DNA of 64,000 nucleotides from Escherichia coli (GTDB taxonomy: Bacteria > Pseudomonadota > Gammaproteobacteria > Enterobacterales > Enterobacteriaceae), in the NCBI RefSeq assembly GCF_017348835.2, contig NZ_CP071375.1. One strand, written 5' to 3'. Position 1 is the first letter of the stretch. Every line of letters starts with the position of its first letter. A program made the translations under genes and the position numbers. This document shows positions 1 through 37,478 of the stretch, in pieces. The notes under the pieces were generated by a model. That model saw nothing but the letters and a program-made list of their open reading frames with translations, had not been told where the DNA came from and did no database searches.

Positions 1-1187
1 ATAAATGCAGCAATAAAACTATTGGTATATTGGACAATGAAGCCAGTTAAAATAGGGGCGATAATTCCCGAGGTGTTTGCCAGTAAATGTACAAAACCAC
101 CAACGCCACCGACTTTATCAGGGGAAATATTATCGGAGACAATTGCCCACGGCGCGGCAGCGGCGAGATACATAAAGAAGATACCCATTGCCATTAACAT
201 CACTGCATTTGTTACGGAGGCAACCTGACCCGCAAAACTGATACAAATAGCCGAGAGAATTAACCCTCCAACGATAATTAACTTTCTGGCCAGCAGCAGA
301 TTTTTGGTTTTGCGATATAACCAGTCTGAAAACATACCGCCAATAGCAATACCAACGCTACCAATAATCCACGGAATGGCCGAGGCAATACTCATCTCCT
401 GAATATTTAGTCCCTTTTCCATTGAGAGATAACTTGGAAACCAGGTTAAAAAGAAATACAGAATATAGTTAATAGAGAAGAATGCCAGGCCAGTGAACAG
501 AACTATAGGCTGGGTCAGGTAGAAGATAAAAGGCACTTTGGCTGAGTCAGTGCCGTAGCCTGGCGCGCCTTTTTGCGCCTCATCATACTCGGCAATTTCT
601 TCTTTCGATGTATGAGGGTTATTATGTGGACGATCGGTAAATGCTTTAATCCAGAAAAATGTCCAGATAAAACCCAGAGACATTAAAATGATAAAAGCGA
701 TGCGCCAGTTCCACATCACCACGATTGCGCCAACAATCGGACCCGCAATCGCACCACCCAAAGGGTTGCCCGCGTTTGCGATGCCCACAGCTCTGGCGCG
801 CTGATCAAGCGGAACCCAGTTACTAATGCATTTGTTGATCGTCGTACTAATCGGGCCTTCGCTCATCCCGAATAATACGCGCACGATAAACAAAGATATA
901 TAACCGAAAGCGAGGCCAGTCAGCCCACAGAACAATGACCAGGAAAGCATTGCAATGGCAAAAACTTTGCGGGGACCATAGAGATCGGATAAATAGCCAC
1001 CAACAAAGTTAAATAATGCATAACCAAAGAAAAAACTACTCAGCATAATCCCAACTTCGGCTGGGTTTAGGCCAAAATGATCTTTGATATAGGGCATTGC
1101 CACAGAAAATGCCGCACGATCGAGATAATTAATTATTCCAGCGATAAACAGCAGGAATAATATTTTGGAATGCTGTCGTTTGAACAT
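1..1187 (-). CDS. MFS transporter (anion:cation symporter-like), partial: N-terminus in window, C-terminus beyond left edge
   Basis: Minus-strand reading frame from ATG at 1187 to the window edge (~395 codons); translation is dominated by hydrophobic transmembrane-like segments with MFS-type motifs; not in the supplied ORF track because it lacks a stop in the window. Confidence 0.6.
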   Translation of the reverse strand, partial: MFKRQHSKILFLLFIAGIINYLDRAAFSVAMPYIKDHFGLNPAEVGIMLSSFFFGYALFNFVGGYLSDLYGPRKVFAIAMLSWSLFCGLTGLAFGYISLFIVRVLFGMSEGPISTTINKCISNWVPLDQRARAVGIANAGNPLGGAIAGPIVGAIVVMWNWRIAFIILMSLGFIWTFFWIKAFTDRPHNNPHTSKEEIAEYDEAQKGAPGYGTDSAKVPFIFYLTQPIVLFTGLAFFSINYILYFFLTWFPSYLSMEKGLNIQEMSIASAIPWIIGSVGIAIGGMFSDWLYRKTKNLLLARKLIIVGGLILSAICISFAGQVASVTNAVMLMAMGIFFMYLAAAAPWAIVSDNISPDKVGGVGGFVHLLANTSGIIAPILTGFIVQYTNSFIAAF

Positions 1188-1254
1188 AGCAAGTCCTGCA
1201 TAAATAATTTATGTGAATAGTGGTAGGGTAGAATTAATAATTTAAATATATGAT

Positions 1255-1941
1255 CTACATCACACCGAACTTTTCAAATACTTCCACGGTGCTCATGCCA
1301 TTTTTTATCGCCAGACGAACATCACTTTCGGTTGCGACTTTATTCAGTGCTTCAGCTATTACCTCCTTTTCAACTTCTTTTGGAATAACTAAAAGACCAT
1401 CGCAGTCGCCATAAATAATATCGCCGGGATTTATCACCACACCGCAAACTTCAACCGGGACGTTATAATCAATGACTTTTCCTCGCGGCCCCTGATCCTG
1501 AGCATAAGTACCATAACTAAATGTGGGGAAATTAATATCAAGAATTTCTTTAGAGTCCCGGACATAACCATCAAGAACAGCACCGGCGGCCTTAAGATGC
1601 ATAGCGCGAGTGGACATTAAACCGCCCCATAATGCGTAACGTAGCGAACTTCCTGTCGCAATATAAACATCGTTTTCTTTCAGCGAATCCAGCGCCTCAA
1701 ACATAATACCGAACGGTTTTTTACCAATTGCTGTATTCCCCGACGATGAGTGCAACTCATAAACATCGGCTTCAAGAACAGGCATAGCCCGCCCTGCGAG
1801 AACCATACTGGAGTGTAAAGGTTTCATTGAAGGAGAAACAAACTGATGCAAATATCCTTTGGTATCAAGAATATCGCCAACAACGGCAGTAAATAACTGC
1901 GTACGCATCAACTGAAAAAGTTCCTTGTCATTGTTCCACAT
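1255..1941 (-). CDS. RraA-family protein (HMG/CHA-aldolase / oxaloacetate decarboxylase-like)
   Basis: 228-aa ORF; C-terminal GDIIYGDCDGLLVIP motif typical of the RraA / dimethylmenaquinone methyltransferase-like fold; AGGA Shine-Dalgarno about 9 nt upstream of the ATG. Confidence 0.6.
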   Translation of the reverse strand: MWNNDKELFQLMRTQLFTAVVGDILDTKGYLHQFVSPSMKPLHSSMVLAGRAMPVLEADVYELHSSSGNTAIGKKPFGIMFEALDSLKENDVYIATGSSLRYALWGGLMSTRAMHLKAAGAVLDGYVRDSKEILDINFPTFSYGTYAQDQGPRGKVIDYNVPVEVCGVVINPGDIIYGDCDGLLVIPKEVEKEVIAEALNKVATESDVRLAIKNGMSTVEVFEKFGVM

Positions 1942-1992
1942 AATTAACGATCCTGAATTGTAGTGAGGAGGTGTGAACAGAGACTAGAGTAG

Positions 1993-2025
1993 AACCTATA
2001 AACCTGTCAAACAGGTTTATAGGTT
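1993..2025. promoter_or_regulatory. Perfect 15-bp inverted repeat (AACCTATAAACCTGT-caa-ACAGGTTTATAGGTT) in the divergent promoter region; candidate operator
   Basis: Read directly from sequence; contains a TGT-N3-ACA core of the kind bound by GntR/FadR-family regulators; lies between the divergent RraA-like/MFS genes and the GntR gene. Confidence 0.4.
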
Positions 2026-2239
2026 GAAGAGTGTAAACGATCGCACTCTGCGAGCCTCTTCACAATTTCAGCTATGGTTTACTGCGATCGCTTTTCAACC
2101 GGATGCGTCCTATCGCTGCTACGCCTTTTTCGGTAACATACGAACCAAAGGTAGGAGGGATTATCTGTAACGCTATGATTTTTAAGTTTTAGATAAGATA
2201 TGTTGCGGCTGAAACAGGTAATATCTGCTCGGTAAATTG

Positions 2240-2965
2240 ATGGCAAGAATGATGACAACGAAAATTCAGCTAGAAAGTAACACGCTCTCAGCCCAGGTAC
2301 GAGACTACATACTGTCGTTAATTGCGCGGCAAAAGTTAACCGTCGGGATGCCGGTGCCCAGTGAAATGCAACTTACCCAGGAACTTGGCGTCAGTAAGGG
2401 CGTTGTCCGTGAGGCCTATCGTTCACTTGCCGCCCTTGGAATACTCGAAACCAAAAGTGGTAAAGTGCCACGCATTAAAGCCTTTGATTCTAGCGTGTTG
2501 CAGGTCATTTTTTCCTTTGCGACGCTGACCGAGCAGGTCAGTTCTTCACAGATACTTGCCGCCAGACGTTGGCTGGAAGCCGGATGCGTACAAATGGCGG
2601 CGCTCAATGGAGATGAAGAGGATTTTGCTGCGCTGAAGCAAGAAATGTCGTTGATACGCGAAGAGTTTTCTGACACCGAGCGTTTCCTGGAACATGATTT
2701 AAATTTCCATTTGCTGTTATCGCAGGCATCTAAAAATCCTTTATTCAGCATTCTGTTGCAGGCTTTACACACCCAGTTAACCCACTCAATGCGAGCGGGT
2801 CTGGAAGCACAACGCAATAATCATGAATATGAGCGTGGGATAATTGCATTGCACCAACGTGTTTGTGACTGTGTTTGTAATCGCGATGCTGAAGGTGCGA
2901 TGAAAGCCATGGATGAGCATTTCAACCTCTCTTCTGATGCTTTAAACAATCAGTCTCCTCTTTAA
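2240..2965 (+). CDS. GntR-family transcriptional regulator (FadR/FCD subfamily)
   Basis: ORF 2237..2965; N-terminal winged-HTH-like segment (QLTQELGVSKGVVREAYRSLAALGILE) and helical C-terminal domain; start ambiguous among TTG 2237 and ATG 2240/2249/2252. Confidence 0.7.
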   Translation: MARMMTTKIQLESNTLSAQVRDYILSLIARQKLTVGMPVPSEMQLTQELGVSKGVVREAYRSLAALGILETKSGKVPRIKAFDSSVLQVIFSFATLTEQVSSSQILAARRWLEAGCVQMAALNGDEEDFAALKQEMSLIREEFSDTERFLEHDLNFHLLLSQASKNPLFSILLQALHTQLTHSMRAGLEAQRNNHEYERGIIALHQRVCDCVCNRDAEGAMKAMDEHFNLSSDALNNQSPL

Positions 2966-6159: not shown

Positions 6160-6310
6160 AACGTTGCTGACTGTAGGCCGGATAAGGCATTTACGCCGCA
6201 TCCGGCAATCAGTGCACGATGCCTGATGCGACGCTTGCGCGTCTTATCATGCCTACAACCGTTGCCGAACGTAGGCTGGATAAGGCGTTTACGCCGCATC
6301 CGGCAATTCT
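6160..6310. repeat. REP (repetitive extragenic palindromic) cluster in the aceA-aceK intercistronic region
   Basis: Multiple copies of GCCGGATAAGGCGTTTACGCCGCATCCGGCA-type and GCCTGATGCGACGC-type palindromic units. Confidence 0.75.
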
Positions 6311-6332
6311 CTGCTCCTGATGAGGGCGCTAA

Positions 6333-10224
<3,892 letters not shown>

Positions 10225-11564: not shown

Positions 11565-15248
<3,684 letters not shown>

Positions 15249-17100: not shown

Positions 17101-17190
17101 ACCGTGACCCTGTAGGCCTGATAAGACGCGTAAAGCGTCGCATCAGGCACTATGAACAAGATGCCGGATCATGCATCCGGCAATTCACTT
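17101..17190. repeat. REP element(s) between yjbB and pepE
   Basis: GCCTGATAAGACGCG...CGCATCAGGC and GCCGGATCATGCATCCGGCA palindromic units. Confidence 0.7.
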
Positions 17191-17878: not shown

Positions 17879-17989
17879 TACTTCTCCGGTTAGTAAGAAA
17901 TCACGGAAGGAATGCTACCACTGCGAATTTAACCACTTACTGACATGGCTCACGATGTCACGTATTGCACAGGCGCTGAGACTGATGAC

Positions 17990-18120
17990 AAACACAGCAT
18001 TGCCTGATGCGCTACGCTTACCTGACCTACCAGATAACTGCAATATATTGAATTTTCAAAATTATGTAGACCGAATAAGGCTTCATTCCGCATCCGGCAT
18101 AAACAATGTGCACTTTGCCA
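17990..18120. repeat. Degenerate REP-like units between pepE and sorE
   Basis: GCCTGATGCGCTACGCTTA and GCTTCATTCCGCATCCGGCAT motifs resembling REP consensus. Confidence 0.5.
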
Positions 18121-18258
18121 CCAATTTGAGCGCCCCTTAAGGCGCTGATATTTTTTATGCTTCTCGTGCAAATTGTGCTGCTTCAGCAATCAGCAGCTCA
18201 TCCGGTCGCGAAGTTGCTGGTGCGACCAGCCAGCGACATGCAGAGTTGAGTAACGCGA

Positions 18259-19488
18259 TTAATCATGGGAAATTGCCTCTGCATGAGTGAGCAGATATTG
18301 CTCCGCCTCACCGGACCAGATCCCCTGATGACGCGCCAGAATCGCCGCCAGTGCTTGATCCTGAATCTGCGTGAGTGACGTCAGCGGCAGGTATTTCTCG
18401 GTATACACCAGCTTTTTGCCGCCGCCGACGGCAGGCAATTCAAGCGTGGTTTCGCCCGCGGCATTCAGCCCAAGAATATGTGTTACCACTTTTGCGGCCT
18501 GCACTTTTTTCTCTTCGATCAGTTTGACCGCCGCGCGCATGTCGTCGGTATTGCCGCCTGACGTGCCCACGTAGTGGGTAAATGCATAATGCACATCGTA
18601 GAAATTAATTGGCGCGCTGAAATGTTTATCCTGCGGTCCGGCGAAGAAATTCAGGCAACCATCTGTCGCCAGCAAGGAAGAGGCGAGAGTCACCAGTCCT
18701 TCATTAGGCACAAAGACGAAAATATCATCGAAGCCGTGACCGCCACTCAGCGCCATTAGCGTATCAAATGCTGCATCGGTGGCATTGAGATAATGAATCA
18801 GTGTTTGCGGTTCTGATGGATAGTGCTTGCGCGCATAACTCAATTTATCGTTGTCGGTATCGGTAATGACGAGCAGCGACGGGTTAACGGGTCCATGTAG
18901 CGCATAATCAATCGCCAACAGTCCCATTGGTCCGGTGCCGCCGAGGATCAGCGTGCGCCCTTGCGGGCGAATCCCCATCGTGTGGTTATAACTACCTTCC
19001 TGAAGATGATAGTTGGCGTTGAACGCGCCAATCACGCAGGAAAGTGGTTCAACCAGCGAGCCTTCAAAATAGGTTTCGCCGTCGTATGCCAGCAGGCAAT
19101 CTTGTTCCATGACCTCGTTGGGAATAACCACATGCGTGGCTTCGCCGCCCACCCACGGGAAGGAGTAGCCGGGGCAGTCCGGGCGATCCGGCAATTGCAG
19201 GTTGGCCTGAATCACATAACGCTGACCCGGCTGGAATTTGTGCTGCCACTTTTTACCCACGGCCAGAATATCGCCGCAAAACTCGTGGCCGATGATGATT
19301 GGGTTGGTCGCCACATCGTCGGGTACTTTTTTATGGTTTTCACCCAGGTTGGCCTCTTTCCAGGAAGAGAGGCACAGGCTGTCAGTGACCACCGTCGCGA
19401 GGATTTCATCCTCCTGCATTTCAGGAAGGTCAAAGGTTTCCAGGCGTAAATCACGTTTACCATAAAGACGCAGAGCTGTTGTTTTCAT
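18259..19488 (-). CDS. sorE: L-sorbose-1-phosphate reductase (Zn-dependent MDR-family dehydrogenase)
   Basis: ORF 18259..19500 trimmed to MKTTALRLYGKRDLRLE...; medium-chain dehydrogenase fold; last gene of a sor-type operon. Confidence 0.8.
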   Translation of the reverse strand: MKTTALRLYGKRDLRLETFDLPEMQEDEILATVVTDSLCLSSWKEANLGENHKKVPDDVATNPIIIGHEFCGDILAVGKKWQHKFQPGQRYVIQANLQLPDRPDCPGYSFPWVGGEATHVVIPNEVMEQDCLLAYDGETYFEGSLVEPLSCVIGAFNANYHLQEGSYNHTMGIRPQGRTLILGGTGPMGLLAIDYALHGPVNPSLLVITDTDNDKLSYARKHYPSEPQTLIHYLNATDAAFDTLMALSGGHGFDDIFVFVPNEGLVTLASSLLATDGCLNFFAGPQDKHFSAPINFYDVHYAFTHYVGTSGGNTDDMRAAVKLIEEKKVQAAKVVTHILGLNAAGETTLELPAVGGGKKLVYTEKYLPLTSLTQIQDQALAAILARHQGIWSGEAEQYLLTHAEAISHD

Positions 19489-19539
19489 AAACCACCTCAT
19501 GTTGAGCGATGGCCCCGGCAGTCGTGCCGGGGCGAAGAA

Positions 19540-20364
19540 TCAGGACAGGAAGCCCAGCGCATTGCCGATAATCCCTAAGCCAAACAGGGCGAAAATCAGC
19601 CATACCGGGTTAATTTTTTTGTTGAGCAGACGAACCATTAGTAGCGTCAGACCGAGCGCCAGCAAACCAGGGCAAAGTTGGTCGAGAATGTTCTGCACGG
19701 TCATGATGACGGTGGAGCCATCGGCGGCATGCGTTTGTGAAACCACCAACGGTACGTTGATTGACGTCCATTTGGTGACCAGCACGCCCATCACAAACAG
19801 TCCGAGAATCGACGCGCCTTCGGTGAGTTTTTGCAGCAAATTACCGCCCATATCGCTGACGATATTCACCCCTTTGCGAAAGCCGAGCTGGAGGCCATAC
19901 CACTTCATCGCCAGACGCACCGCGTTGAAAATAAAGAAGAACAGCAGCGGGCCGAGAATGTTGCCCGAAAGTGCCAGAGATGCGCCGAGCGCGGCGGTAA
20001 TCGGGCGCAGCGTTCCCCAGACCAGTGGATCGCCAACCCCTGCCAATGGTCCCATCAGACCGACTTTGATGCCGTTAATGGTGCCGTCATCAATTTCCGC
20101 GCCGTTGGCCCGCGCCTCTTCCATGGCGGCAGTGACGCCGATGACCGGGCCACATACGGCTGGCGTGGTATTGAAGAACACCAGGTGTCGCCTGAGCGCC
20201 GCAACCTGATCCTCTTTTAATGGGTAAAGTCGCTTGATGGCGGGGATCATGTCGTAGCAAAAGCCCAGCCCGTGAATACGTTCAAAGTTAAAGGACGCCT
20301 GTTGCAGGTTGGAGCGCAGAAACATGCTCACCAGATCGCTGCGTGTAATTTTTCTCTGTTCCAT
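19540..20364 (-). CDS. sorM: PTS sorbose/mannose-family EIID component
   Basis: ORF 19540..20394; EIID-like membrane protein; likely start MEQRKITRSDL... giving about 274 aa. Confidence 0.8.
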   Translation of the reverse strand: MEQRKITRSDLVSMFLRSNLQQASFNFERIHGLGFCYDMIPAIKRLYPLKEDQVAALRRHLVFFNTTPAVCGPVIGVTAAMEEARANGAEIDDGTINGIKVGLMGPLAGVGDPLVWGTLRPITAALGASLALSGNILGPLLFFFIFNAVRLAMKWYGLQLGFRKGVNIVSDMGGNLLQKLTEGASILGLFVMGVLVTKWTSINVPLVVSQTHAADGSTVIMTVQNILDQLCPGLLALGLTLLMVRLLNKKINPVWLIFALFGLGIIGNALGFLS

Positions 20365-20374
20365 GATGGCTCCG

Positions 20375-21172
20375 TTAATCGTCAAGTTGGTCAAGGGCGG
20401 TGGAAGCGGGGGCCTGGAGCTGAGGTTCAGCTTTACGCCACTGTGGATTTAACTGGATGTAGACCAGGGCCATGATCACGCCGACGCCACCGAACGCCAG
20501 CAGACTGAGATCGAGGTAGCCACCTGCGAGGAAACCGAGGAAAAAGAAAGGCATCAAATATTTCACGCCCATCATACGTAGCACCATGGCGTAACCGACC
20601 ACCACGATAAAACCGCCAGCAATCTGTAGTCCTCGGGTCACAAATTCGGGAATGGCGTTTAACATATTGCTCACCATATCGGCGCTGACGAACAGCGAGA
20701 CAATCAGTGCCGGAACAGCAACGCGCAGCGCCTGCACGCCAAGCGCGGAGACATGCAGAATATCGAGAGTGCGAAACCGTGCTTCTTCCGCTGCTTTATC
20801 CGCCGCGTGCTGGAACACTACGGTGATGGTACGTGCAAACACCGTCAGCACCTGGCCTGCCGCAGCCACAGGCAACGCGATGGCGATTCCGGTGGCGATG
20901 CTTTGCTGACCAACGATAACCAGAATGGCGGAGATTATGCTGGCGAGTGCAGAATCCGGAGATTGCGCCGCGCCGACGTTCATCCAGCCGAGAGCTATCA
21001 ATTCCAGCGTACCACCGAGTATTATTCCGGTTTTTAAATCACCGAGAATTAAACCAATCACCGTACAGGCAATTAACGGGCGATGAGTCTGGAATTCATC
21101 CAGCACGCTGCCCATTCCGGCAATACAGGAAAAAAGAAATATAGCAATAATTTGTAGGGTACTTATTTCCAT
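20375..21172 (-). CDS. sorA: PTS sorbose/mannose-family EIIC component
   Basis: 265-aa hydrophobic ORF with EIIC-like sequence (MEISTLQIIAIFLFSCIAGMGSVLDEFQ...). Confidence 0.8.
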   Translation of the reverse strand: MEISTLQIIAIFLFSCIAGMGSVLDEFQTHRPLIACTVIGLILGDLKTGIILGGTLELIALGWMNVGAAQSPDSALASIISAILVIVGQQSIATGIAIALPVAAAGQVLTVFARTITVVFQHAADKAAEEARFRTLDILHVSALGVQALRVAVPALIVSLFVSADMVSNMLNAIPEFVTRGLQIAGGFIVVVGYAMVLRMMGVKYLMPFFFLGFLAGGYLDLSLLAFGGVGVIMALVYIQLNPQWRKAEPQLQAPASTALDQLDD

Positions 21173-21237
21173 GATTTGTCACCTTTTAAGTGTCGTCATC
21201 CCTGCCTGTTAAAGCATATGTACACAGGCGCTATTAT

Positions 21238-21732
21238 TTAATTTGCGATTAACTGTTCGTTTATTTTGTCGATAATATTGATTGAGGGATCTGACGCTAC
21301 GACGCGTAAATCCAGTATGACGCCAAGATTATTTAACTCATGAAATGCGTTAATATCATCATCATCTAATGAAACCGCTTTGGTTAACTGTTTTTTACCG
21401 GGCCGCCAGGCCATGCCGCCAATATTCAGGGTGCCTATTTTTACCCCCTGGCGAACCATCGCTAAGGCATCCTGTGGGCGAGTGAAAAGATAAAAAACGG
21501 TTTCGTCCTGATATTGCGGGTTGTGATAAACCGCGACGGCTTTTTCAATATTGACCACGTTAACCTTCATTCCCGGTGGCGCAGCCTGACGCAATAATGT
21601 CCGGCGAACTTCATCGTTATAAACTTCGTCATTGCAGATAATAATGCGCTGGGCGTTAGCCACTTTCGACCAGACGGTAGTGACCTGACCGTGGATCAGG
21701 CGGTCATCAATGCGGGCGAGCGTAATGTTCAT
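21238..21732 (-). CDS. sorB: PTS sorbose/mannose-family EIIB component
   Basis: 164-aa ORF MNITLARIDDRLIHGQVTTVW... (conserved IIB His motif). Confidence 0.85.
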   Translation of the reverse strand: MNITLARIDDRLIHGQVTTVWSKVANAQRIIICNDEVYNDEVRRTLLRQAAPPGMKVNVVNIEKAVAVYHNPQYQDETVFYLFTRPQDALAMVRQGVKIGTLNIGGMAWRPGKKQLTKAVSLDDDDINAFHELNNLGVILDLRVVASDPSINIIDKINEQLIAN

Positions 21733-22139
21733 CAGAAATCCTCCTCTGCCGTTGCCACCTGTCTCCAGACGACGCAGGATTGCTTTGCGATTTGCGTCAG
21801 GTGTTCACACAGTTCATCAACATTCATGCTGTCCTGGTTATCAACCAGTTCGAGCGCCAGCGGCAGAGAAAGGCCGCTGATTACCCGCAAACGAGGATTG
21901 CGCATCGCAAGCATCGCTGCCGCATTCCACGGGCTGCCGCACTGTAAATCCACGGCAATCAGCCACTCATCTTGATTGTGAATGCTTACTAACTTTTCCA
22001 GCTTTACCACAATGTCTCCGGCGTTTTCACCGGGCACAAATTCAACGGCTTCAACATTGGCGTTGCCGTAAACCATCTGAACCGATTCCAGCATGGCGCA
22101 AGCTAATTTGCCGTGGGCACAAAAAATGGCGTTGACCAT
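21732..22139 (-). CDS. sorF: PTS sorbose/mannose-family EIIA component
   Basis: 135-aa ORF MVNAIFCAHGKLA...; start of sorB overlaps its stop (ATGA), indicating translational coupling. Confidence 0.85.
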   Translation of the reverse strand: MVNAIFCAHGKLACAMLESVQMVYGNANVEAVEFVPGENAGDIVVKLEKLVSIHNQDEWLIAVDLQCGSPWNAAAMLAMRNPRLRVISGLSLPLALELVDNQDSMNVDELCEHLTQIAKQSCVVWRQVATAEEDF

Positions 22140-22148
22140 AAAGCCTCC

Positions 22149-22955
22149 TTATCCGCGCGTTTTGCCGCCCGCAATGTTAGTGGTTACTCCGGTGATGTAG
22201 CTGGCGCGTTCAGACAACAGATAACAAACAAAATCAGCGACTTCTGCTAATCTACCGGCGCGCCCAATAGGAATGGCGTTTTTGGTATAGCCTTCACGCA
22301 GCTGCTCGACGGTGATATTGCGCGTCCACGCCAGCGCTTCTTCATATTCCGGCGTGCGCAGTCCTGTTTTTTCCAGAATCCCCGGCGCGATACCGACCAC
22401 ACGGATACCGTGTTTACCCAATTCTTTCGACCAGGAGCGCGTGAAGCTATTGAGCGCGGCTTTGGTAGCGGCGTAACAGCTTTGTCCTTCTGAGCCTTCC
22501 AGCCCACTTTCTGAGGAAACATTCACAATCACGCCATCATGTTGTTTGACCATCTGTCGCGCCACCGCCTGCGACATCAGAAAAACACCTTTCTGGTTGA
22601 TATTGACCATTTTTTCGAATGCAGCTTCGTTGAGTTCATACTGCCCGGCAGGCGCTTTCTCATCGACCAGCAGACGCGGGAAATTGACCCCGGCGTTATT
22701 GACCAGACCGTCGATGCGACCAAAACGCTGGATAATTTCCGCTACCGTATGATTTACCTCTTTGGCGCTGGAAATATCGGTCGGCCAAAACTGATAGCCT
22801 TTATGACCTTCATATTGTCCATCGCCACCGTGAATATCGACCATCTGTACATTCGCGCCTTGTGCTAATAATTCCTCTACAATCGCCAGACCAATACCGG
22901 ATGCGCCGCCGGTGACGATAATGATTTTATCCTGCAAATTTAACCACGTTTGCAT
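22149..22955 (-). CDS. sorD: Sorbitol-6-phosphate 2-dehydrogenase (short-chain dehydrogenase/reductase)
   Basis: 268-aa ORF with TGGASGIG Rossmann motif and SDR catalytic YxxxK (YAATKAAL). Confidence 0.8.
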   Translation of the reverse strand: MQTWLNLQDKIIIVTGGASGIGLAIVEELLAQGANVQMVDIHGGDGQYEGHKGYQFWPTDISSAKEVNHTVAEIIQRFGRIDGLVNNAGVNFPRLLVDEKAPAGQYELNEAAFEKMVNINQKGVFLMSQAVARQMVKQHDGVIVNVSSESGLEGSEGQSCYAATKAALNSFTRSWSKELGKHGIRVVGIAPGILEKTGLRTPEYEEALAWTRNITVEQLREGYTKNAIPIGRAGRLAEVADFVCYLLSERASYITGVTTNIAGGKTRG

Positions 22956-23024
22956 AACAGACTCCTGATTTTAGATAATAGGGACCCGCCGTAATTTTTA
23001 TTACGATAAACATCGGGAAGATTT

Positions 23025-23972
23025 TTATTTCAGTAATAGTTCAGCTGTGCTGCTATTCGTTACCAGACAATTAATATATTTTCCACGCAGTGCACCAATA
23101 ATTCCGCTGTATTTTTCTTCACTCATGGCAATGCCAATGGAATATCGTGCCTGCTTTAATTTATTCATTTCGATAGAGAGTGTTTTTTCGCTCATATTCG
23201 TTTCAACCATTGCGCCGTGAATATCAAAAAAGCGCGAGCAAATATCGCCAGCAACCTGGCGGGCATTCAGGTCGTCACTCTCTTCACCACCATAAAACGC
23301 ATGCCAGTTAGCGCCGTCGCGAATGGCCGGTGAGCCAATTCCCACCAGGGCGACATCCAGATTATCCCAGTAGGCAGAGATGGTTTTAAAGTGCTGAGAC
23401 TGCATGATCCCATTACGAATTAAGGGGTTATCCAGCAGAGCCGGAAAATCCGCGAGATGCGATTCCCCTTTCAGCTTCGCTGCCGCGCTGTAGGTTAATG
23501 TGTTTACGTGATAGCGGCTTTCGAGTTTACCGGACGGTCCGCCAATAATTGGCACGCAGATTAACTGCCGCGATTGCCCCGCTTGCGGCAAGTTTTCAAC
23601 CAGTGCGCTCACCGCGCGACCCCAGGAAAAACCGACAATATCGCCAGGCTCCAGCAAGCGATCCAGCAGTTGCGCGCCGTGTAACCCCATCATCGCCAGT
23701 TGAGTCTCTTCATCCTCATCATTTCCCGACACCACCACAACGTCTTTCAGGCCAAACTTTTGCTTCAGTTGCTGCTCGAGCCAGAGATTTTCGTTGTAGT
23801 CATAGTTGATGGCGATGGTGACAATTCCCTGATCGCGGCCTCGTTTAAGCAAGCGGCTGATGGTGGTGCGGTAAATACCCAGTTCGCGCGCGATTTGCGC
23901 CTGCGTCATATCCTGTTCGTAATAGAGTTGGGCAATCTTCACAATCAAACGGATATCGTCACTGTTTTCCAT
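23025..23972 (-). CDS. sorC: SorC-family transcriptional regulator of the sorbose operon
   Basis: ORF 23025..24056 trimmed to MENSDDIRLIVKIAQLYYEQDMTQAQIARELG... (HTH plus sugar-binding domain, about 315 aa). Confidence 0.8.
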   Translation of the reverse strand: MENSDDIRLIVKIAQLYYEQDMTQAQIARELGIYRTTISRLLKRGRDQGIVTIAINYDYNENLWLEQQLKQKFGLKDVVVVSGNDEDEETQLAMMGLHGAQLLDRLLEPGDIVGFSWGRAVSALVENLPQAGQSRQLICVPIIGGPSGKLESRYHVNTLTYSAAAKLKGESHLADFPALLDNPLIRNGIMQSQHFKTISAYWDNLDVALVGIGSPAIRDGANWHAFYGGEESDDLNARQVAGDICSRFFDIHGAMVETNMSEKTLSIEMNKLKQARYSIGIAMSEEKYSGIIGALRGKYINCLVTNSSTAELLLK

Positions 23973-23988
23973 TGCCGCCTCCTGGTTC

Positions 23989-24111
23989 TGCACATTTGTG
24001 CAAATACGCTTTCTCACCGCTTGATCTGATATAACCCCATCATGATGGCCTTTCAAAGCGATTTTTCACTCTTTGCATGGGGAGAAATAGCGCTTTCTCT
24101 TGCACATTTGT
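23989..24111. promoter_or_regulatory. sor promoter region with repeated TGCACATTTGT motif (one copy forms palindrome TGCACATTTGTGCA)
   Basis: Motif occurs at 23989-24002 and 24101-24111, just upstream of the sorC start; candidate SorC operator sites. Confidence 0.35.
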
Positions 24112-24319
24112 TTCTCTGCGCAGTAGTCATCAGCACAGGTGTGCAGCGATTCGTAATATGTTGATTATCCTTATTTTGCCAGGCAAATTTGCATTGTACT
24201 TCCGGAGACACTTTTGTGATAAAAGGCGTGGCAGATCACATTTAATTTCGACGTTGCCGCATAACTCTGTTTTTCCCTGCTAAGAGGTACGGTATATTCC
24301 GCGTTTTACAGGAGAATTT

Positions 24320-25465: not shown

Positions 25466-25993
25466 GATGGTGCCCTCAGTGAGCCAGAGAGTTCAGTGTA
25501 CGGGAATTCGTTTGCGAGCAGAACTGATAATATTCCTTTGTTCTCTTCTTAAATATTTATCTTTCTTGATAATTGACGATAAATACAGATACAAATTTAG
25601 CGAAAAAATCTCCCCCTACAAACAACAATGATTTATTAAATCTTTATTTTTCATGTAATTAAAATTTTTTATCACTTCTGGCACGCTTCTCGCAATAACA
25701 CTTTTGCGTTGATACTGAATTACAAAGGGGGTTAAACCCCGTCGGCACACCAGGAACGGCCAGGCTGTTTTCCGGGCGTGTTCCGTCAGCCTTTGACGCC
25801 AATTACGGGTTCGATTCCCACATTCATTCCTGAAATGAATACTGGTTGTAACTTATTAAATAAAAAATGAGGGATTGCGCAGTCTGCGGTCCCCGATAAC
25901 GTCACCGATAAAGATGCCGGGTAACAGGCAAAAGGGAATTCCCCTGTCGCTTCGTGTCTGCTTCCGCGACGGCTATTAAGCAAGGAATAGATA

Positions 25994-27121
25994 ATGATTA
26001 AAAAAATAAGCGTAAGAAAAGATCAGCTGGCATTACTCTCCAGAAACGGCGATTACTACAAAGTGCTGCATGCAGGCGAGCATATTTTACCCTGGTTAAA
26101 TACCCCGGAAGTGTTGCTGATTACGCTGGATGGTAGCGAAGTTCCCGACGTGCTTGCGGATTATTTGCGCCGCTTTCAGCCTGATTGGGTGGAGAAATAT
26201 TGCCTGGTGGCAGACTTGTCGGAGACTGAAGCCGGGGTGTTGTATATGGACGGTATTTTGTTGGAGATCCTGCCGCCATCAACGCGTCGTTTGTACTGGC
26301 GTGTAGAGGATGATTTGACGCTGGTGCGGATGAATACGCAGCAAGTCCCGGTACAAACGGAGGTGATGAATGCGGTATTACAGCCACGGCGCAAAGGAGT
26401 TGTTAAAGGCCGCGATGCGATACTGACGGTGCAGGTTCCGGCCTGGCATGTAGGCGTGCTGAAAATCGATGGTGAAACGCAGGCGCTGTTACCGCCGGGG
26501 CTGACTGCGTACTGGAAAATAAATCATCTGGTTGAAGCTGAAGTTGTCGACACCCGCTTGCAGGTACTGGAAGTCAGCGGGCAAGAAATCTTAACGAAAG
26601 ATAAGGTCAATCTGCGGATTAATCTCGCCGCTAACTGGCGCTATAGCGATGTGTTGCTGGCATTTAGTCAGCTAACGAAGCCGATTGATCATTTGTATCG
26701 GGAATTACAATTTGCCCTGCGTGAAGCGGTAGGTACGCGCACACTGGATGAACTGCTGGAAGATAAACAGGTCATTGATGACGTTGTTAGCGAGCAGGTG
26801 AAACTACGCATGAAGCCGTTCGGTATGGAGATCGCTTCGTTAGGAGTAAAAGATATCGTCCTGCCTGGCGATATGAAAAATATTCTTGCGCAACTGGTAG
26901 AGGCGGAGAAATCCGCGCAGGCCAATGTGATTCGCCGACGTGAAGAAACGGCAGCGACGCGCTCGTTACTGAACACCGCCAAAGTCATGGAGAACAATCC
27001 GGTAGCGTTGCGTTTAAAAGAGCTGGAAACGCTGGAGAGAGTGGCTGAGCGGATTGATAACATCTCTGTATTTGGCGGTCTGGATCAGGTTCTGCATGGG
27101 TTGGTTAATATCAAAGGGTGA
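25994..27121 (+). CDS. Soluble SPFH/band-7 (stomatin/prohibitin-like) domain protein with a novel ~170-aa N-terminal domain
   Basis: 375-aa ORF; C-terminal half has SPFH-like features (VSGQEILTKDKVNLRINLAANWRY...AEKSAQANVIRRREETAATRSL); no evident N-terminal transmembrane segment; AAGGA Shine-Dalgarno before the ATG. Confidence 0.7.
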   Translation: MIKKISVRKDQLALLSRNGDYYKVLHAGEHILPWLNTPEVLLITLDGSEVPDVLADYLRRFQPDWVEKYCLVADLSETEAGVLYMDGILLEILPPSTRRLYWRVEDDLTLVRMNTQQVPVQTEVMNAVLQPRRKGVVKGRDAILTVQVPAWHVGVLKIDGETQALLPPGLTAYWKINHLVEAEVVDTRLQVLEVSGQEILTKDKVNLRINLAANWRYSDVLLAFSQLTKPIDHLYRELQFALREAVGTRTLDELLEDKQVIDDVVSEQVKLRMKPFGMEIASLGVKDIVLPGDMKNILAQLVEAEKSAQANVIRRREETAATRSLLNTAKVMENNPVALRLKELETLERVAERIDNISVFGGLDQVLHGLVNIKG

Positions 27122-27918
27122 GTAACATGCCATTAAATGGAGTCAGTGCTGCGATGCGCGAAAGGGTATCGCAGCAGTTAAAAGAAATTGAACGTCGCTA
27201 TGGCGTGAAAGTGCTGTACGCCTGCGAATCGGGGAGTCGCGGCTGGGGATTTGCTTCGCCCGACAGCGATTACGATGTGCGGTTTTTGTATGTCCATCCG
27301 CTGGAATGGTATCTGCGGGTAGAGGCACCACGCGATGTTATCGAACTGCCCATCGACGACGAGTTAGATGTTTCCGGTTGGGAATGGCGCAAAGCGCTGG
27401 GATTGCTGAAAGGTGCGAATCCCACGCTAATTGAATGGCTGGATTCACCGGTGGTCTATCAGCAAGATGAAGAGACGATAACGGCGCTTAAGGCAATGGT
27501 CCCAACGTGGTTTTCTCCGTTGCGTGCGCGCTGGCATTACTATTCGATGGCGCAGAAAAACTTCCGCGGATATTTGCAGGGCGATGAAGTTCGACTGAAA
27601 AAATACTTTTACGTGCTGCGTCCGTTGCTGGCCGTGCGTTGGGTTGAAGCGGGAAAAGGCGTACCGCCAATGCGTTTTTCCGAATTGCTGGCGGGAAGTG
27701 AGTTGGATGCGGCCTTACGCGCAGAAATAGATGAATTACTGGAACGTAAACAGCGTGCGGGTGAAGCGGAATATGGCCCACGCCGTCCATTGCTACATGC
27801 GTTTATCCATGCGGAACTGGCGCGTGGGGAAATTCCGCCTGTGTTACCGGATAGTAGAGAAGGGGACGTTAAGAAACTGGATAGCTTACTGTACCAGACG
27901 GTAATGCGCCGGGCGTGA
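27118..27918 (+). CDS. Pol-beta-superfamily nucleotidyltransferase
   Basis: 266-aa ORF; ESGSRGWGFASPDSDYDVRF fits the hG[GS]x9-13DxD nucleotidyltransferase signature; GTG start at 27118 overlaps the upstream stop (GTGA), alternative ATG at 27127 with AGGGTG Shine-Dalgarno. Confidence 0.7.
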   Translation: MSNMPLNGVSAAMRERVSQQLKEIERRYGVKVLYACESGSRGWGFASPDSDYDVRFLYVHPLEWYLRVEAPRDVIELPIDDELDVSGWEWRKALGLLKGANPTLIEWLDSPVVYQQDEETITALKAMVPTWFSPLRARWHYYSMAQKNFRGYLQGDEVRLKKYFYVLRPLLAVRWVEAGKGVPPMRFSELLAGSELDAALRAEIDELLERKQRAGEAEYGPRRPLLHAFIHAELARGEIPPVLPDSREGDVKKLDSLLYQTVMRRA

Positions 27919-27933
27919 TGCCCGGCGTTATTT
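27906..27933 (+). terminator. Intrinsic terminator after the nucleotidyltransferase gene
   Basis: Hairpin CGCCGGGC-gtgat-GCCCGGCG overlapping the stop codon, followed by TTATTT. Confidence 0.5.
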
Positions 27934-27950
27934 CAGGTCATCAGCTTTTA

Positions 27951-28880
27951 TTATTCTTGTGCACTTCCGCTGATTTCATTTTGTATATGCGTTGCAATAT
28001 CGCAATTGGTTGCCGCTTGTGAACTAAATATCATCTTCTCACGCGAATACACCGCAAACTTATCTGCCAGGTTTGAAGCAAACACCTTGCTGGCATTTTC
28101 TGCTAGCAAATCGGTAACGATATCATGGTGATTTTTATCCACTTTGCGGGCGATATTTCCCGCCTCTTTGTCCTTATTATACCCTTCGTTGGTGCTTTCC
28201 CAGCTTAATGCCGCTGAGGTGGTTTTTATCATGACTTCTGTTCGGTAGCCTGCATCTTTGAGTTTTTTTAATGTTTGTAGCGGCGTAGCGGCATTACGAA
28301 ATGTTCCTTCGACAACAATATTGAGTTTATTGGCTATGGCCCTCTCTATTGCACGTTCGACCGTTTCGCCGGAAAATTTTGCCGTATGGGTAACAAAATC
28401 GTCGCCATAAGTTTGATATATATAATTAAAATCAGGGTGTAGAAATCTGAAATCATCACCATTAATAATCATTATATTATTCTTTGTTTCCCTTTTTGCT
28501 AATTCGATTAGGGCGGATTTTCCGGCTCCTGGTTGTCCACCTAAAACAAAACCAATGGGACTCTGCTGGGATGTGACGTCATGGTTTGTCAGACGCTGCC
28601 AAATAGAATCAAAAGACGCTTTATTTTCTGAATGCGCAGTATTATTAAATTCACGCTGATACTTTTTTCTGACCTGCTGGAGGCGTAACTTTCCCTGTGT
28701 AAAATCAACAAGTTCTGCTGGAGTGGAATAAAGATTGTCGCGATAGCTGACTAATTGTGATAGCTCATCGTCTGAGTCCTGAACTTGTGAGGAAAAACAA
28801 CTGTCGACGATATTTGATAAAAACGCGATGCACTGACTGGTGCCGTTTAAAAGTGCATCTTTTTCCATTAAAGTAGCCAT
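27951..28880 (-). CDS. ezeT: Single-chain zeta-toxin family protein (EzeT-like UDP-GlcNAc kinase toxin with N-terminal cis-antitoxin domain)
   Basis: ORF 27951..28886; Walker A GGQPGAGKS placed ~110 residues from the N-terminus (long N-terminal extension); zeta-toxin-like C-terminal region; likely ATG at 28880 preceded by AGGAG; AT-rich. Confidence 0.7.
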   Translation of the reverse strand: MATLMEKDALLNGTSQCIAFLSNIVDSCFSSQVQDSDDELSQLVSYRDNLYSTPAELVDFTQGKLRLQQVRKKYQREFNNTAHSENKASFDSIWQRLTNHDVTSQQSPIGFVLGGQPGAGKSALIELAKRETKNNIMIINGDDFRFLHPDFNYIYQTYGDDFVTHTAKFSGETVERAIERAIANKLNIVVEGTFRNAATPLQTLKKLKDAGYRTEVMIKTTSAALSWESTNEGYNKDKEAGNIARKVDKNHHDIVTDLLAENASKVFASNLADKFAVYSREKMIFSSQAATNCDIATHIQNEISGSAQE

Positions 28881-29024
28881 TAACACTCCTGTTAAATAAT
28901 ATTTTTCGGTGATTATAATACTGTTCTACAGGAGTGATTTTGCATTTCAGATATTATTTAATCTATGTTTGCAGTGAGGATGGCGTATAACAATTGGTGA
29001 GCGTTATACGCCAGTAGGAAAATA

Positions 29025-30439: not shown

Positions 30440-30660
30440 CGCAGAGCGATACTTCGCTACTATTTTCACCCAGAAGTGCTCCACCACTTGCGAAACGCCC
30501 GACTGCGAACGCTTCTGGTGACAACCCAGGGGATTCAGCCCCTGTAGCCGATGATGAACGTGGCCAGCCGTTCAATCACCTCGGCGATGCACCCCCTCAG
30601 GTGTTATCACAGGACTGGCTCCTCCAACACCGTTACTTGGGCAACGCGCCTCTTCTGGCC
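30440..30660 (-). ncRNA. Lysine riboswitch (LYS element) in the lysC 5' leader
   Basis: Long 5' leader on the minus strand upstream of lysC; reverse complement contains AGAGGCGCGUUGCCCAAGUAACGGUGUUGGAGGAGCCAG ... GGUGCAUCGCCGAGGUGAUUGAACGG, consistent with the known lysC lysine aptamer; boundaries approximate. Confidence 0.65.
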
Positions 30661-30898
30661 TGCGCTAGCGCAGGTAGTACATTTATAAATAAAGGGTGAG
30701 CGGGGCGGTTGTCAACGACGGGGTCATGCGGATTTTTCATCCACTCCTGGCGGTCAGTAGTTCAGCTAATAAATGCTTCACTGCGCTAAGGGTTTACACT
30801 CAACATTACGCTAACGGCACTAAAACCATCACATTTTTCTGTGACTGGCGCTACAATCTTCCAAAGTCACAATTCTCAAAATCAGAAGAGTATTGCTA

Positions 30899-32550: not shown

Positions 32551-32660
32551 ATCGTTCATGCCTGATGCCGCTATGTAGGCCGGATAAGGCGTTCACGCCG
32601 CATCCGGCAACCGATGCCTGATGCGACGCGGTCGCGTCTTATCAGGCCTACAGGTCGATG
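32551..32660. repeat. REP cluster downstream of pgi
   Basis: GCCTGATGCCGCTATGTAGGCCGGATAAGGCGTTCACGCCGCATCCGGCA and GCCTGATGCGACGCGGTCGCGTCTTATCAGGCCTACA units. Confidence 0.75.
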
Positions 32661-32720
32661 CCGATATGTACATCGTATTCGGCAATTAATACATAGCACG
32701 ATTGATTAAATAACCTTAAT

Positions 32721-37209: not shown

Positions 37210-37478
37210 TTGTTCCAGAGGAACATTGTCGATTTTTCGCGCATTGCTGGTGGCTGGGAATCACCTGAATGGGTGATTTTTGAATTACCGGCTTTGGTGC
37301 GGTTTGTCTTGCCGGATGCGCCGCCAGGCGCGGCTTATCCGGCCTACGGGTAGGTATATCCGGCTTTGGTGGAGGCGCGCTCCAAATCCAGGTTGAACAA
37401 AACATACACAAAAAATATAGATCTCCGTCACATTTTTGCGTTATACAGGAAGCTCGCCACTGTGAAGGAGGTACTGCT

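What the first reader, a model, noticed from the sequence alone, without database searches (positions are those of the whole stretch)
6160..6310. REP clusters at operon junctions (aceA-aceK, malE-malF, post-pgi, yjbB-pepE, ubiA-plsB, post-lamB, post-alr)
At least seven intergenic sites carry REP-type palindromes (others near 17101-17190, 32551-32660, 37262-37375, 42246-42380, 46475-46512, 50975-51098, 63962-64000). Those inside operons (aceA-aceK, malE-malF) are in positions classically linked to differential mRNA stability and polarity. They should not be mistaken for CRISPR or mobile-element termini.
Basis: partly seen in the sequence, partly recalled or inferred. Interest (0 to 1): 0.2.

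Follow-up and report, generated by a model that had tools for sequence, protein, structure and literature searches.

The report
Ordinary E. coli REP/BIME repeats
The flagged sites are genuine copies of the well-known E. coli REP/BIME family of small palindromic repeats that sit between genes, so the finding is correct but ordinary; the only extra is that their copy number differs between strains at some sites and not at others.

Summary
Confirmed, and already known. The window is a non-K-12 E. coli segment, syntenic with K-12 4.215-4.267 Mb (aceBAK to alr). All eight flagged sites carry REP elements.

An independent Rfam model (naRNA4, which is a y-z2 BIME unit) hits seven of the eight sites and nothing else REP-like. 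All copies are intergenic, occupying 9 of 40 intergenic gaps. They show the defining features: a 35-38 nt imperfect palindrome, a 5' GTAG, an AA/GC stem mismatch, y/z compensatory changes and alternating orientation.

Organisation:
- y-z2-y clusters at aceA-aceK and malE-malF
- y-z2 after pgi
- z1-L-y (BIME-1, IHF-type linker) at ubiA/plsB and sorE/pepE
- singles at yjbB/pepE, yjbT-psiE, lamB-malM and alr-tyrB

Against K-12, architecture is the same at six sites. lamB-malM has 1 REP against 3, and there are two small indels. Across about 5,400 genomes, aceA-aceK carries 0-5 REPs and lamB-malM 1-7, while malE-malF is length-invariant.

The most likely function is RNA hairpins that block 3' exonucleases and attenuate downstream expression, plus gyrase and IHF sites. 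No function was tested here.

The parts
6173..6207 (+). y-type REP, first unit of the aceA-aceK cluster; its GTAG starts 23 nt after the aceA stop codon
   Evidence: 57.4 bits, E 6.6e-16. 34 of 35 bases match the y consensus. Part of the Rfam naRNA4 hit at 6176-6253.
6220..6256 (-). z2-type REP in inverted orientation, middle unit of the aceA-aceK cluster
   Evidence: 49.6 bits. 36 of 37 bases match the z consensus.
6271..6305 (+). y-type REP, third unit; ends 27 nt before the aceK ATG at 6333
   Evidence: 57.1 bits. Same three-unit layout as K-12.
17112..17149 (+). single z2-type REP between the convergent genes yjbB and pepE, starting 12 nt after the yjbB stop
   Evidence: 52.4 bits. Differs from K-12 by one substitution.
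17163..17182 (.). short REP-like hairpin GCCGGATcatgcATCCGGC, 6 nt from the pepE stop; either a truncated REP or the pepE 3' hairpin
   Evidence: Only 11.7 bits, E 0.31. Covered by the weak naRNA4 hit at 17115-17182. Conserved in K-12.
   Evidence: y at 18066-18099 scores 23.4 bits, E 5.7e-5. z1 at 18001-18030 scores 16.9 bits, E 0.007. Neither copy was used to build the model. The element aligns over its full length with the ubiA-plsB BIME-1, including the linker GCAATnTATTGAATTT.
32559..32568 (-). 10-nt z-type REP tail fragment (TGCCTGATGC) inside a 13-bp insertion that K-12 lacks
32575..32651 (.). BIME-2 unit after pgi: y (32575-32609, +), a 5-nt linker, then z2 (32615-32651, -)
   Evidence: 60.4 and 53.2 bits. 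Rfam naRNA4 79.5 bits, E 1.8e-12. Identical to K-12.
37310..37347 (-). single variant y-like REP (inner stem GCCGCGCC/GGCGCGGC) between the divergent genes yjbT and psiE
   Evidence: 53.0 bits (it was a training member). Single-copy at megablast stringency. About 40% of genomes, UTI89 among them, carry a shorter allele with only a REP fragment.
42246..42280 (+). malF-proximal y-derived REP with a perfect 10-bp stem and CCAG in place of GTAG
   Evidence: 44.6 bits. Alignment row malEF_Yp. Conserved in K-12 and nearly so in UTI89.
42286..42322 (-). z2-type REP, middle unit of the malE-malF cluster
   Evidence: 50.2 bits. One C-to-T change against K-12.
42338..42372 (+). y-type REP, malE-proximal; on the mal mRNA (- strand) it begins 10 nt after the malE stop
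   Evidence: 56.7 bits. The malE-malF RNA folds at -67.9 kcal/mol, z = -7.6.
46475..46509 (+). single y-type REP between lamB and malM (CTGG in place of GTAG); K-12 has y-z2-y here
   Evidence: 52.4 bits. The alignment to K-12 shows about 91 bp missing, with the window copy joining the first and third K-12 y units. Other strains carry up to 7 REPs here.
50994..51088 (.). BIME-1 between the convergent genes ubiA and plsB: short z1 (50994-51019, -; its CTAC is deleted relative to K-12), L linker with an IHF-like site (51029-51041), and y (51054-51088, +)
   Evidence: y scores 55.1 bits; z1 scores 11.7 bits. 6-bp CCTACA deletion against K-12. IHF consensus with 1 mismatch.
50963..50985 (+). ubiA 3' hairpin GCCGGATGATCATCCGGC followed by TTTCTTCT.
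   Evidence: Sequence. Only 10.2 bits against the REP model. The consensus terminator scan did not list it, so the terminator reading is by eye.
63983..64000 (-). first 18 nt of a y-type REP after alr, cut by the window end
   Evidence: Exact core match. K-12 continues as TGCCGGATGCGGCGTGAATGCCTTATCCGGCC.

Best explanation
These are members of the E. coli REP (palindromic unit) family, mostly assembled into BIMEs.

Shown here: identity, anatomy, extragenic placement, family membership and strain-to-strain copy-number change.

Inferred from published work on the same family, and for malE-malF on the same locus:
1. When transcribed, the 35-38 nt imperfect hairpins stall 3'-to-5' exonucleases. 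Pairs of inverted REPs can also fold into one longer hairpin. Either way the upstream cistron (aceA, malE, lamB, pgi, yjbB) outlasts the downstream one, and read-through expression of aceK, malF-malG and malM is attenuated.
2. REPs that start 9-12 nt after a stop codon (yjbB, malE, lamB, plsB) may also impede terminating ribosomes.
3. In DNA, y-z2 units (BIME-2 type: aceA-aceK, pgi, malE-malF) are preferred gyrase sites. z1-L-y units (BIME-1: ubiA/plsB, sorE/pepE) carry an IHF site.
4. The repeats were spread and are remodelled in trans by the single-copy RayT/TnpAREP Y1 transposase, which binds GTAG plus the mismatched hairpin on single-stranded DNA. Recombination between same-orientation copies also contributes. 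Together these would produce the gains and losses seen at aceA-aceK, lamB-malM and yjbT-psiE.
For: Sequence and structure:
- The alignment of 12 copies has 81% mean column identity. GTAG is present in 9 of 12 copies and the AA/GC stem mismatch in 11 of 12.
- 95.8% of pair cells form pairs, against 22-36% when the partner columns are slid. Three pairs show double-sided y/z changes.

Statistics.

Extragenic placement: all 16 copies are intergenic, in 9 of 40 gaps.

Dispersed family:
- A 701-nt query holding three REPs finds a median of 20 places per genome.
- The model built only from window copies finds six REPs at 50-55 bits flanking rayT in K-12.

RNA structure: z = -5.4, -7.6 and -3.3. No terminator or promoter consensus lies in aceA-aceK.

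BIME-1 linker homology between two loci.

Copy-number variation:
- aceA-aceK has 0, 1, 2, 3, 4 or 5 units.
- lamB-malM has 1, 3 or 7.

Literature:
- REP/BIME definitions and RayT biochemistry: PMC3333891.
- mRNA stabilisation, attenuation and ribosome stalling: summary in PMC12306157.
- Gyrase at BIME-2: PMC6379681.
- naRNA4 as a REP325 unit: PMC4550694.
Against: - No expression, decay or protein-binding data were generated for this strain. Every functional step is by analogy.
- About one genome in eight has a REP-free aceA-aceK spacer (L007), so REPs are not required at that site.
- From my memory of Chung et al. 1993 (J Bacteriol; not retrievable here), the low AceK level was attributed mainly to poor aceK translation and premature termination, rather than to the REPs.
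- The IHF consensus is not enriched in the window (74 matches against 61 expected), so the IHF sites rest on linker homology and not on the motif.
- rayT is absent from about a third of E. coli genomes. I could not determine whether this strain has it.
Confidence: 0.95

Rival explanations
1. They are intrinsic (Rho-independent) transcription terminators that mark operon ends.
For: They are GC-rich hairpins placed just after stop codons. The ubiA 3' hairpin at 50963-50985, followed by TTTCTTCT, does read as a terminator by eye.
Against: The consensus scan finds no terminator-like site in aceA-aceK (0 found). It finds none at the malE-malF, lamB-malM or ubiA-plsB REPs either. The REP hairpins have no U-tract. 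Three clusters lie inside operons whose downstream genes must be expressed. The same 35-nt sequence recurs at unrelated loci in both orientations.
Confidence: 0.03
2. They are genes for the nucleoid-associated small RNA naRNA4 (CssrE), as the Rfam label would suggest.
For: Three sites score above the RF02564 gathering threshold (79.9, 79.5 and 63.6 bits).
Against: By its alignment the Rfam model is simply one y-linker-z2 BIME unit, derived from REP325 (PMC4550694). Any BIME-2 will therefore match it. The window loci are transcribed as parts of mRNAs and have no promoter consensus of their own. The match shows family membership, not a dedicated sRNA gene.
Confidence: 0.05
3. They are CRISPR-like arrays or the inverted termini of an insertion sequence or MITE.
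For: They are short palindromic repeats in clusters with regular spacing of about 98 bp. REPs do resemble IS200/IS605 subterminal hairpins (PMC3333891).
Against: Clusters hold at most three units in alternating orientation, with no unique spacers, and Tandem Repeats Finder reports no array there. No cas or transposase ORF is adjacent. Flanking genes are aceA/aceK, malE/malF and so on. The units match REP models at E down to 1e-17.
Confidence: 0.01

Closest known systems
E. coli REP / palindromic units (y, z1, z2) organised as BIME-1, BIME-2 and atypical BIMEs (Stern et al. 1984; Gilson, Bachellier and Hofnung; reviewed in PMC3333891)
   Same: Length, GTAG head, mismatched stem, y/z subtypes, alternating orientation, the L linker in z1-y units, extragenic position at 3' ends and between cistrons, and locus-specific copy-number polymorphism. 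Six of the sites match K-12 in architecture.
   Different: Only strain-level details differ from K-12. lamB-malM has 1 unit against 3. There is a 13-bp z-tail insertion after pgi. The CTAC of the ubiA-plsB z1 is removed by a 6-bp deletion. An extra degenerate BIME-1 came with the sorbose island.
malE-malF REP mRNA stabiliser (Newbury et al. 1987, Cell 48:297; Khemici and Carpousis 2004; cited through PMC12306157)
   Same: The same locus and the same three-unit cluster. Length is invariant in 5413 of 5426 genomes.
   Different: One C-to-T change in the z2 stem relative to K-12. Stability effects were not measured here.
Rfam RF02564 naRNA4 (CssrE), a unit of REP325 (PMC4550694)
   Same: The same y-linker-z2 sequence and fold. 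Three sites exceed the family's gathering score.
   Different: These loci are not REP325. There is no evidence that they release a functional nucleoid-associated RNA.
REPIN/RAYT systems (REP doublets mobilised by a domesticated Y1 transposase; PMC2817692, PMC8049555)
   Same: Inverted REP pairs, and a single-copy rayT flanked by REPs of the same family.
   Different: rayT is not in the window, and its presence in this strain is unknown. Mobility is inferred only from presence/absence polymorphism.

Membership tests
E. coli REP (palindromic unit) | 30-40 nt imperfect palindrome able to form a stem-loop | tested here: met
   12 copies of 35-38 nt. 95.8% of pair cells are paired, against 22-36% in the slid controls.
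E. coli REP (palindromic unit) | Conserved GTAG tetranucleotide 5' of the stem foot | tested here: met
   GTAG is present in 9 of 12 full copies. The variants are CCAG (42246), CTGG (46475) and GAAG (51054).
E. coli REP (palindromic unit) | Two-base mismatch (AA opposite GC) interrupting the stem | tested here: met
   Present in 11 of 12 copies. The exception, 42246-42280, has TT and so forms a perfect palindrome.
E. coli REP (palindromic unit) | Extragenic location | tested here: met
   All 16 copies fall in intergenic DNA, which is 14.3% of the window. The only intragenic model hit (12562-12600 in metH, 17.1 bits) lacks the inner stem and was rejected.
E. coli REP (palindromic unit) | High copy number, dispersed around the genome | tested here: met
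   There are 16 copies in 64 kb. A REP-bearing query hits a median of 20 places per genome at megablast stringency. The same family flanks rayT 4 Mb away in K-12.
BIME-2 / atypical BIME | y and z2 REPs in alternating orientation with short linkers, tandemly repeatable, copy number variable between strains | tested here: met
   y-z2-y at aceA-aceK and malE-malF, and y-z2 after pgi. aceA-aceK holds 0-5 units across strains. Assignment of the linkers to the S/s/l/r types was not attempted.
BIME-1 (RIB/RIP) | z1 and y REPs separated by a conserved long linker L carrying an IHF site; single copy per locus | tested here: met
   Found at 50994-51088 and 18001-18099. Their linkers are homologous and each has an IHF-consensus match with 1 mismatch. 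Actual IHF binding is not testable here.
REPIN/RAYT system | A cognate REP-associated tyrosine transposase gene in the same genome, flanked by REPs | not testable with these tools
   rayT is not in the window. In K-12 it lies at 247637-248134, flanked by six REPs that match the window-derived model. It is present in 3575 of 5426 E. coli genomes. The status of this strain is unknown.
Rfam RF02564 naRNA4 | Score at or above the gathering threshold (59.5 bits) | tested here: met
   79.9, 79.5 and 63.6 bits at three sites. This is a sequence criterion only. Production of a functional sRNA was not tested.
CRISPR array | Direct repeats separated by unique spacers of similar length, usually with cas genes nearby | tested here: not met
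   Tandem Repeats Finder reports no array at these sites. Units alternate in orientation and the intervening sequence is itself a REP. Neighbouring genes are aceA, aceK, malE and malF.

The most novel reading that the evidence does not exclude
REP clusters inside operons may fall into two evolutionary classes.

The first is 'frozen', domesticated clusters. malE-malF is length-invariant in 5413 of 5426 genomes. Its malF-proximal unit has lost both features RayT needs: GTAG, and the stem mismatch, which has been converted to a perfect palindrome.

The second is 'free-running' clusters. aceA-aceK has 0-5 units plus a REP-less allele carrying an unrelated hairpin, and lamB-malM has 1-7 units. Their copy number might act as a heritable, lineage-specific dial on the downstream-to-upstream expression ratio, for example AceK dosage relative to AceA.
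Probability: 0.15. Interest if true: 0.4.

Novelty: already known. Interest (0 to 1): 0.1.

Why it matters
For annotation, it matters in three ways:
- These sites should be labelled REP/BIME, not sRNA genes (the Rfam naRNA4 label), terminators, CRISPR or IS ends.
- They explain most of the small indel differences from K-12 in this segment.
- One BIME-1 marks the edge of a strain-specific sorbose island.

Biologically it adds nothing new in kind. The contrast between the invariant malE-malF cluster and the hypervariable aceA-aceK and lamB-malM clusters is a convenient natural series for testing whether REP dosage tunes intra-operon expression.

Tried and rejected
- A fuzzy-regex scan for REP consensus timed out. 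I replaced it with blastn-short and a covariance model.
- The K-12 RefSeq table in this collection lists no REP features, so copy number and orientation were compared by direct alignment.
- A REP-like model hit inside metH (12562-12600, 17.1 bits, E 0.006) was inspected and rejected. It has only the outer GGCCGGA/TCCGGCA arms, has no inner stem, and is coding.
- The 12-bp direct repeat CCGGCTTTGGTG on both sides of the yjbT-psiE REP looked like a possible target-site duplication. The alternative allele in UTI89 is not an empty site. It is a different 60-bp segment carrying a REP fragment, so no insertion event can be read from it.
- The IHF consensus search alone is uninformative (74 matches against 61 expected).
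- Chung et al. 1993, Liang et al. 2015, Liang and Deutscher 2016 and Boccard and Prentki 1993 could not be retrieved. Statements that rely on them are marked as coming from memory or from secondary citation.
- The TRS paper (PMC10687069) concerns the AceK-int sRNA inside aceK, not the REPs.

Full report
**What the window is.** The window is E. coli but not K-12. The aceA-aceK, malE-malF and lamB-malM segments are 100% identical to strain PE164 (NZ_CP114128.1) and about 97-99% identical to K-12. Megablast against K-12 MG1655 shows colinearity from 4,215,230 to 4,266,904, covering aceB through alr. It is interrupted by three stretches without a K-12 counterpart: window 1-2965, 17959-24285 and 25574-29025.

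**Checking the observation.** Reading the eight ranges shows the familiar GCCGGATGCGGCG...CTTATCCGGCCTAC and GCCTGATGCGACG...CTTATCAGGCCTAC palindromes.
- The 13-nt core GCCKGATGCGRCG occurs 27 times with up to 2 mismatches, against 7.96 +/- 2.75 in shuffles. No shuffle of 100 reaches 27. All 11 exact matches lie in the flagged ranges.
- blastn-short with y and z consensus sequences (written from memory) gives full-length matches of 90-97% identity at those sites only.
- Rfam, which is independent of this window, places its naRNA4 model above gathering score at 6176-6253, 32578-32648 and 42249-42319. Its printed alignment shows that model to be one y REP, a linker and one z2 REP.
- At the E-value threshold the same model also touches 6274-6311, 17115-17182, 37252-37344, 42341-42418, 46478-46548 and 51057-51094. 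That is seven of the eight sites. The eighth is cut by the window end.

**Anatomy.** I aligned twelve full-length copies, all written GTAG-first. Mean column identity is 81%, with 16 invariant columns.
- GTAG is present in 9 of 12 copies.
- The stem is interrupted by AA opposite GC in 11 of 12.
- With the stem imposed, 95.8% of cells pair, against 22-36% when the 3' partner is slid by 1-3 columns. Three pairs change on both sides between y and z copies (G-C to U-A, G-C to A-U, C-G to U-A).
- Because the copies are paralogues of two subtypes, this covariation shows that both subtypes keep the hairpin. It does not show repeated independent compensation.

A covariance model built from these twelve was run over the whole window with filters off.
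- The twelve training copies score 44.6-60.4 bits. Nothing scores between 44 and 24 bits.
- Four copies that were not used for training follow: 18066-18099 (23.4 bits, E 5.7e-5), 18001-18030 (16.9 bits), 50994-51019 (11.7 bits) and 17163-17182 (11.7 bits).
- One hit inside metH (12562-12600, 17.1 bits) has only the outer arms. I reject it as chance.
- As an independent check, the same model finds six REPs at 49.6-54.9 bits flanking rayT in K-12, 4 Mb away.

**Placement.** Using a gene table derived from the ORF list and K-12 synteny, 14.3% of the window is intergenic. All 16 copies are intergenic and occupy 9 of the 40 gaps of at least 40 nt. Three sites lie inside operons: aceA-aceK, malE-malF and lamB-malM. 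Three lie between convergent genes or at 3' ends: yjbB/pepE, ubiA/plsB and sorE-pepE. Two follow a gene's 3' end (pgi, alr). One lies between the divergent genes yjbT and psiE, which is unusual for a REP.

Distance from the stop codon to the REP:

| Gene | Distance (nt) |
|---|---|
| lamB | 9 |
| malE | 10 |
| plsB | 11 |
| yjbB | 12 |
| aceA | 23 |
| alr | 25 |
| pgi | 26 |

**Classification.** I follow the nomenclature of PMC3333891.
- aceA-aceK and malE-malF are y-z2-y, and the pgi element is y-z2. These are BIME-2 or atypical BIMEs.
- ubiA/plsB is a short z1, a 34-nt linker and y, which is BIME-1.
- The sorE-pepE element at 18001-18099 aligns with it end to end, including the linker core GCAATnTATTGAATTT.
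- Each linker has an IHF-consensus match with one mismatch. That consensus is not enriched in the window (74 matches against 61 expected), so the homology is the evidence, not the motif.
It sits 42 bp inside the sorbose-operon island.

- Same number and orientation at aceA-aceK, yjbB/pepE, yjbT-psiE (identical), malE-malF (one C-to-T change), ubiA/plsB and alr-tyrB.
- lamB-malM has one y unit where K-12 has y-z2-y. The window copy has the left flank of K-12's first y and the right flank of its third. This is what recombination between the two direct y copies would leave, or the reverse duplication.
- After pgi there is a 13-bp insertion carrying a z tail.
- The ubiA-plsB z1 has lost CCTACA, which removes its CTAC.

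**Across E. coli genomes.** The aceA-aceK spacer is hypervariable. An evenly spaced sample of 40 records shows length classes of 566, 603, 642, 701, 733 and 798 bp for the 701-bp query. Representatives carry the following:
- 0 REPs: ECE204, with a 48-nt spacer holding an unrelated GC hairpin and a Shine-Dalgarno sequence.
- 1 REP: MINF_9A.
- 1 REP plus a z/y chimera: ST131.
- 3 REPs: the window and K-12.
- 3 REPs plus a chimera: D8.
- 5 REPs: 2015C-4944 and AH02.

In the sample the 5-unit class is the commonest (16 of 40 rows), and the REP-less class accounts for about 5 of 40. lamB-malM ranges from 1 unit (window) through 3 (K-12) to 7 (SCU-204). At yjbT-psiE about 60% of genomes have the window allele. 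About 40%, including UTI89 and Nissle, have a shorter allele with only a TGCCAGATGCGACG fragment.

By contrast, malE-malF is 460-461 bp in a single aligned piece in every sampled row. It is covered at 80% or more in 5413 of 5426 genomes. The three units are retained in the divergent UTI89 lineage. This kind of polymorphism is already described (PMC3333891 and its reference to Bachellier et al.).

**How it most likely works.** Nothing in this section was tested here.

RNA level:
- The aceA-aceK spacer folds at -79.4 kcal/mol (z = -5.4).
- malE-malF folds at -67.9 kcal/mol (z = -7.6).
- lamB-malM folds at -57.7 kcal/mol (z = -3.3).
- In the first two, the minimum-energy fold pairs a z unit with the neighbouring inverted y unit into one long hairpin.
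- None of the REP hairpins is followed by a U-tract. The consensus scan finds no terminator or promoter in aceA-aceK, or at the mal REPs.
- Published work summarised in PMC12306157 shows that REP hairpins block ribonucleolytic decay and stabilise upstream mRNA, can attenuate transcription, and can stall ribosomes at nearby stop codons. The malE-malF RNA is a standard structured exonuclease substrate.
- The 15-nt distance rule for ribosome stalling is from my memory of Liang et al. 2015, which I could not retrieve.
- From my memory of Chung et al. 1993, the low AceK level was ascribed mainly to weak aceK translation and premature termination. The contribution of the REPs at that site may therefore be modest. 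The existence of a REP-free natural allele agrees with that.

DNA level:
- BIME-2 elements are transcription-independent strong gyrase sites, cut mostly in y units (PMC6379681).
- BIME-1 linkers frequently carry IHF sites (PMC3333891).

Origin:
- RayT/TnpAREP binds GTAG plus the mismatched hairpin on single-stranded DNA. It cleaves at CT in inverted REPs and linkers, and can recombine BIMEs in vitro.
- rayT is single-copy and present in 3575 of 5426 genomes.
- The malF-proximal unit at 42246-42280 lacks both GTAG and the mismatch. By those in vitro rules it should no longer be a RayT substrate.

**Rivals.** Intrinsic terminators, naRNA4 genes, CRISPR arrays and IS or MITE ends are each addressed in the rivals section. 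None fits the REP units.

**Verdict.** The elements are textbook REP/BIME repeats, so novelty is 'already known' and interest is low. The additions are:
- exact coordinates and types;
- one missed BIME-1;
- the differences from K-12;
- the contrast between a frozen cluster (malE-malF) and free-running clusters (aceA-aceK, lamB-malM);
- a caution that Rfam-based pipelines will label three of these sites as naRNA4.

Noticed in passing
window 17959-24285: A 6.3-kb island between pepE and rluF, absent from K-12. It encodes a SorC-type regulator, a short-chain dehydrogenase, PTS mannose/sorbose-family IIA, IIB, IIC and IID components, and a zinc alcohol dehydrogenase. This looks like an L-sorbose utilisation operon. 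The degenerate BIME-1 sits 42 bp inside its pepE-side edge.
   Followed up: partly
window 25574-29025: A 3.4-kb island between yjbD and lysC, absent from K-12. It encodes an SPFH/Band-7 protein, an RlaP-family nucleotidyltransferase and, on the opposite strand, a Zeta-toxin-domain protein. It may be a small toxin or defence-type accessory module.
   Followed up: partly
window 1-2965: The DNA upstream of aceB has no megablast match in the K-12 stretch compared here (4213001-4271000). It encodes an RraA-like aldolase (1255-1941, -) and a GntR/FCD regulator (2237-2965, +).
   Followed up: partly
window 30466-30662 (-) and 32714-32863 (-): A lysine riboswitch lies upstream of lysC (99.5 bits). A match to the enterobacterial sRNA STnc430 (68.6 bits) lies between pgi and yjbE, a spot with no feature in the K-12 table.
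   Followed up: no
window 57437-57538, within ORF 57379-58401: A 30-bp tandem repeat with 3.4 copies lies inside a single 340-aa ORF. That ORF spans what K-12 annotates as two genes, yjbL and yjbM. K-12 has 30 bp less here. K-12 may carry a split version of one repeat-containing gene.
   Followed up: partly
window 47766-49346: yjbI is an uninterrupted 526-aa ORF here, but is flagged as a pseudogene in the K-12 annotation.
   Followed up: no
L007 251-298 (strain ECE204, aceA-aceK spacer): Roughly one genome in eight has no REP between aceA and aceK. Instead there is a 48-nt spacer with an unrelated hairpin (CGCCCCTTTCCGTAAGGCGAGGGGCG) and a strong AAGGAG Shine-Dalgarno sequence before aceK.
   Followed up: partly
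window 42246-42280: The malF-proximal REP has become a perfect 10-bp palindrome (CGGATAAGGC/GCCTTATCCG) with CCAG in place of GTAG. The pattern fits quasipalindrome correction by template switching. It removes both features RayT needs in vitro (PMC3333891). It is conserved in K-12 and nearly so in UTI89.
   Followed up: partly
window 51015-51025 against K-12 4253953-4253964: A 6-bp deletion (CCTACA) removes exactly the CTAC tetranucleotide of the z1 unit. That is the position of the RayT 'iREP II' cleavage site described in PMC3333891.
   Followed up: no
window 37288-37299 and 37360-37371: An exact 12-bp direct repeat, CCGGCTTTGGTG, lies on both sides of the yjbT-psiE REP. The UTI89 allele is not an empty site, so the origin of the repeat is unresolved.
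   Followed up: partly
whole window: Eight of the ten y-type REPs have GTAG on the + strand, and five of the six z-type on the - strand. The sample is small and the units within a BIME are not independent, so I draw no conclusion.
   Followed up: no
window 6616-6700 (by synteny with K-12 4218879-4218963): K-12 annotates the small RNA AceK-int inside aceK, about 280 nt downstream of its start. According to PMC10687069, the 3' end there is conserved across enterobacteria. This could reflect premature termination within aceK, independent of the REPs.
   Followed up: no
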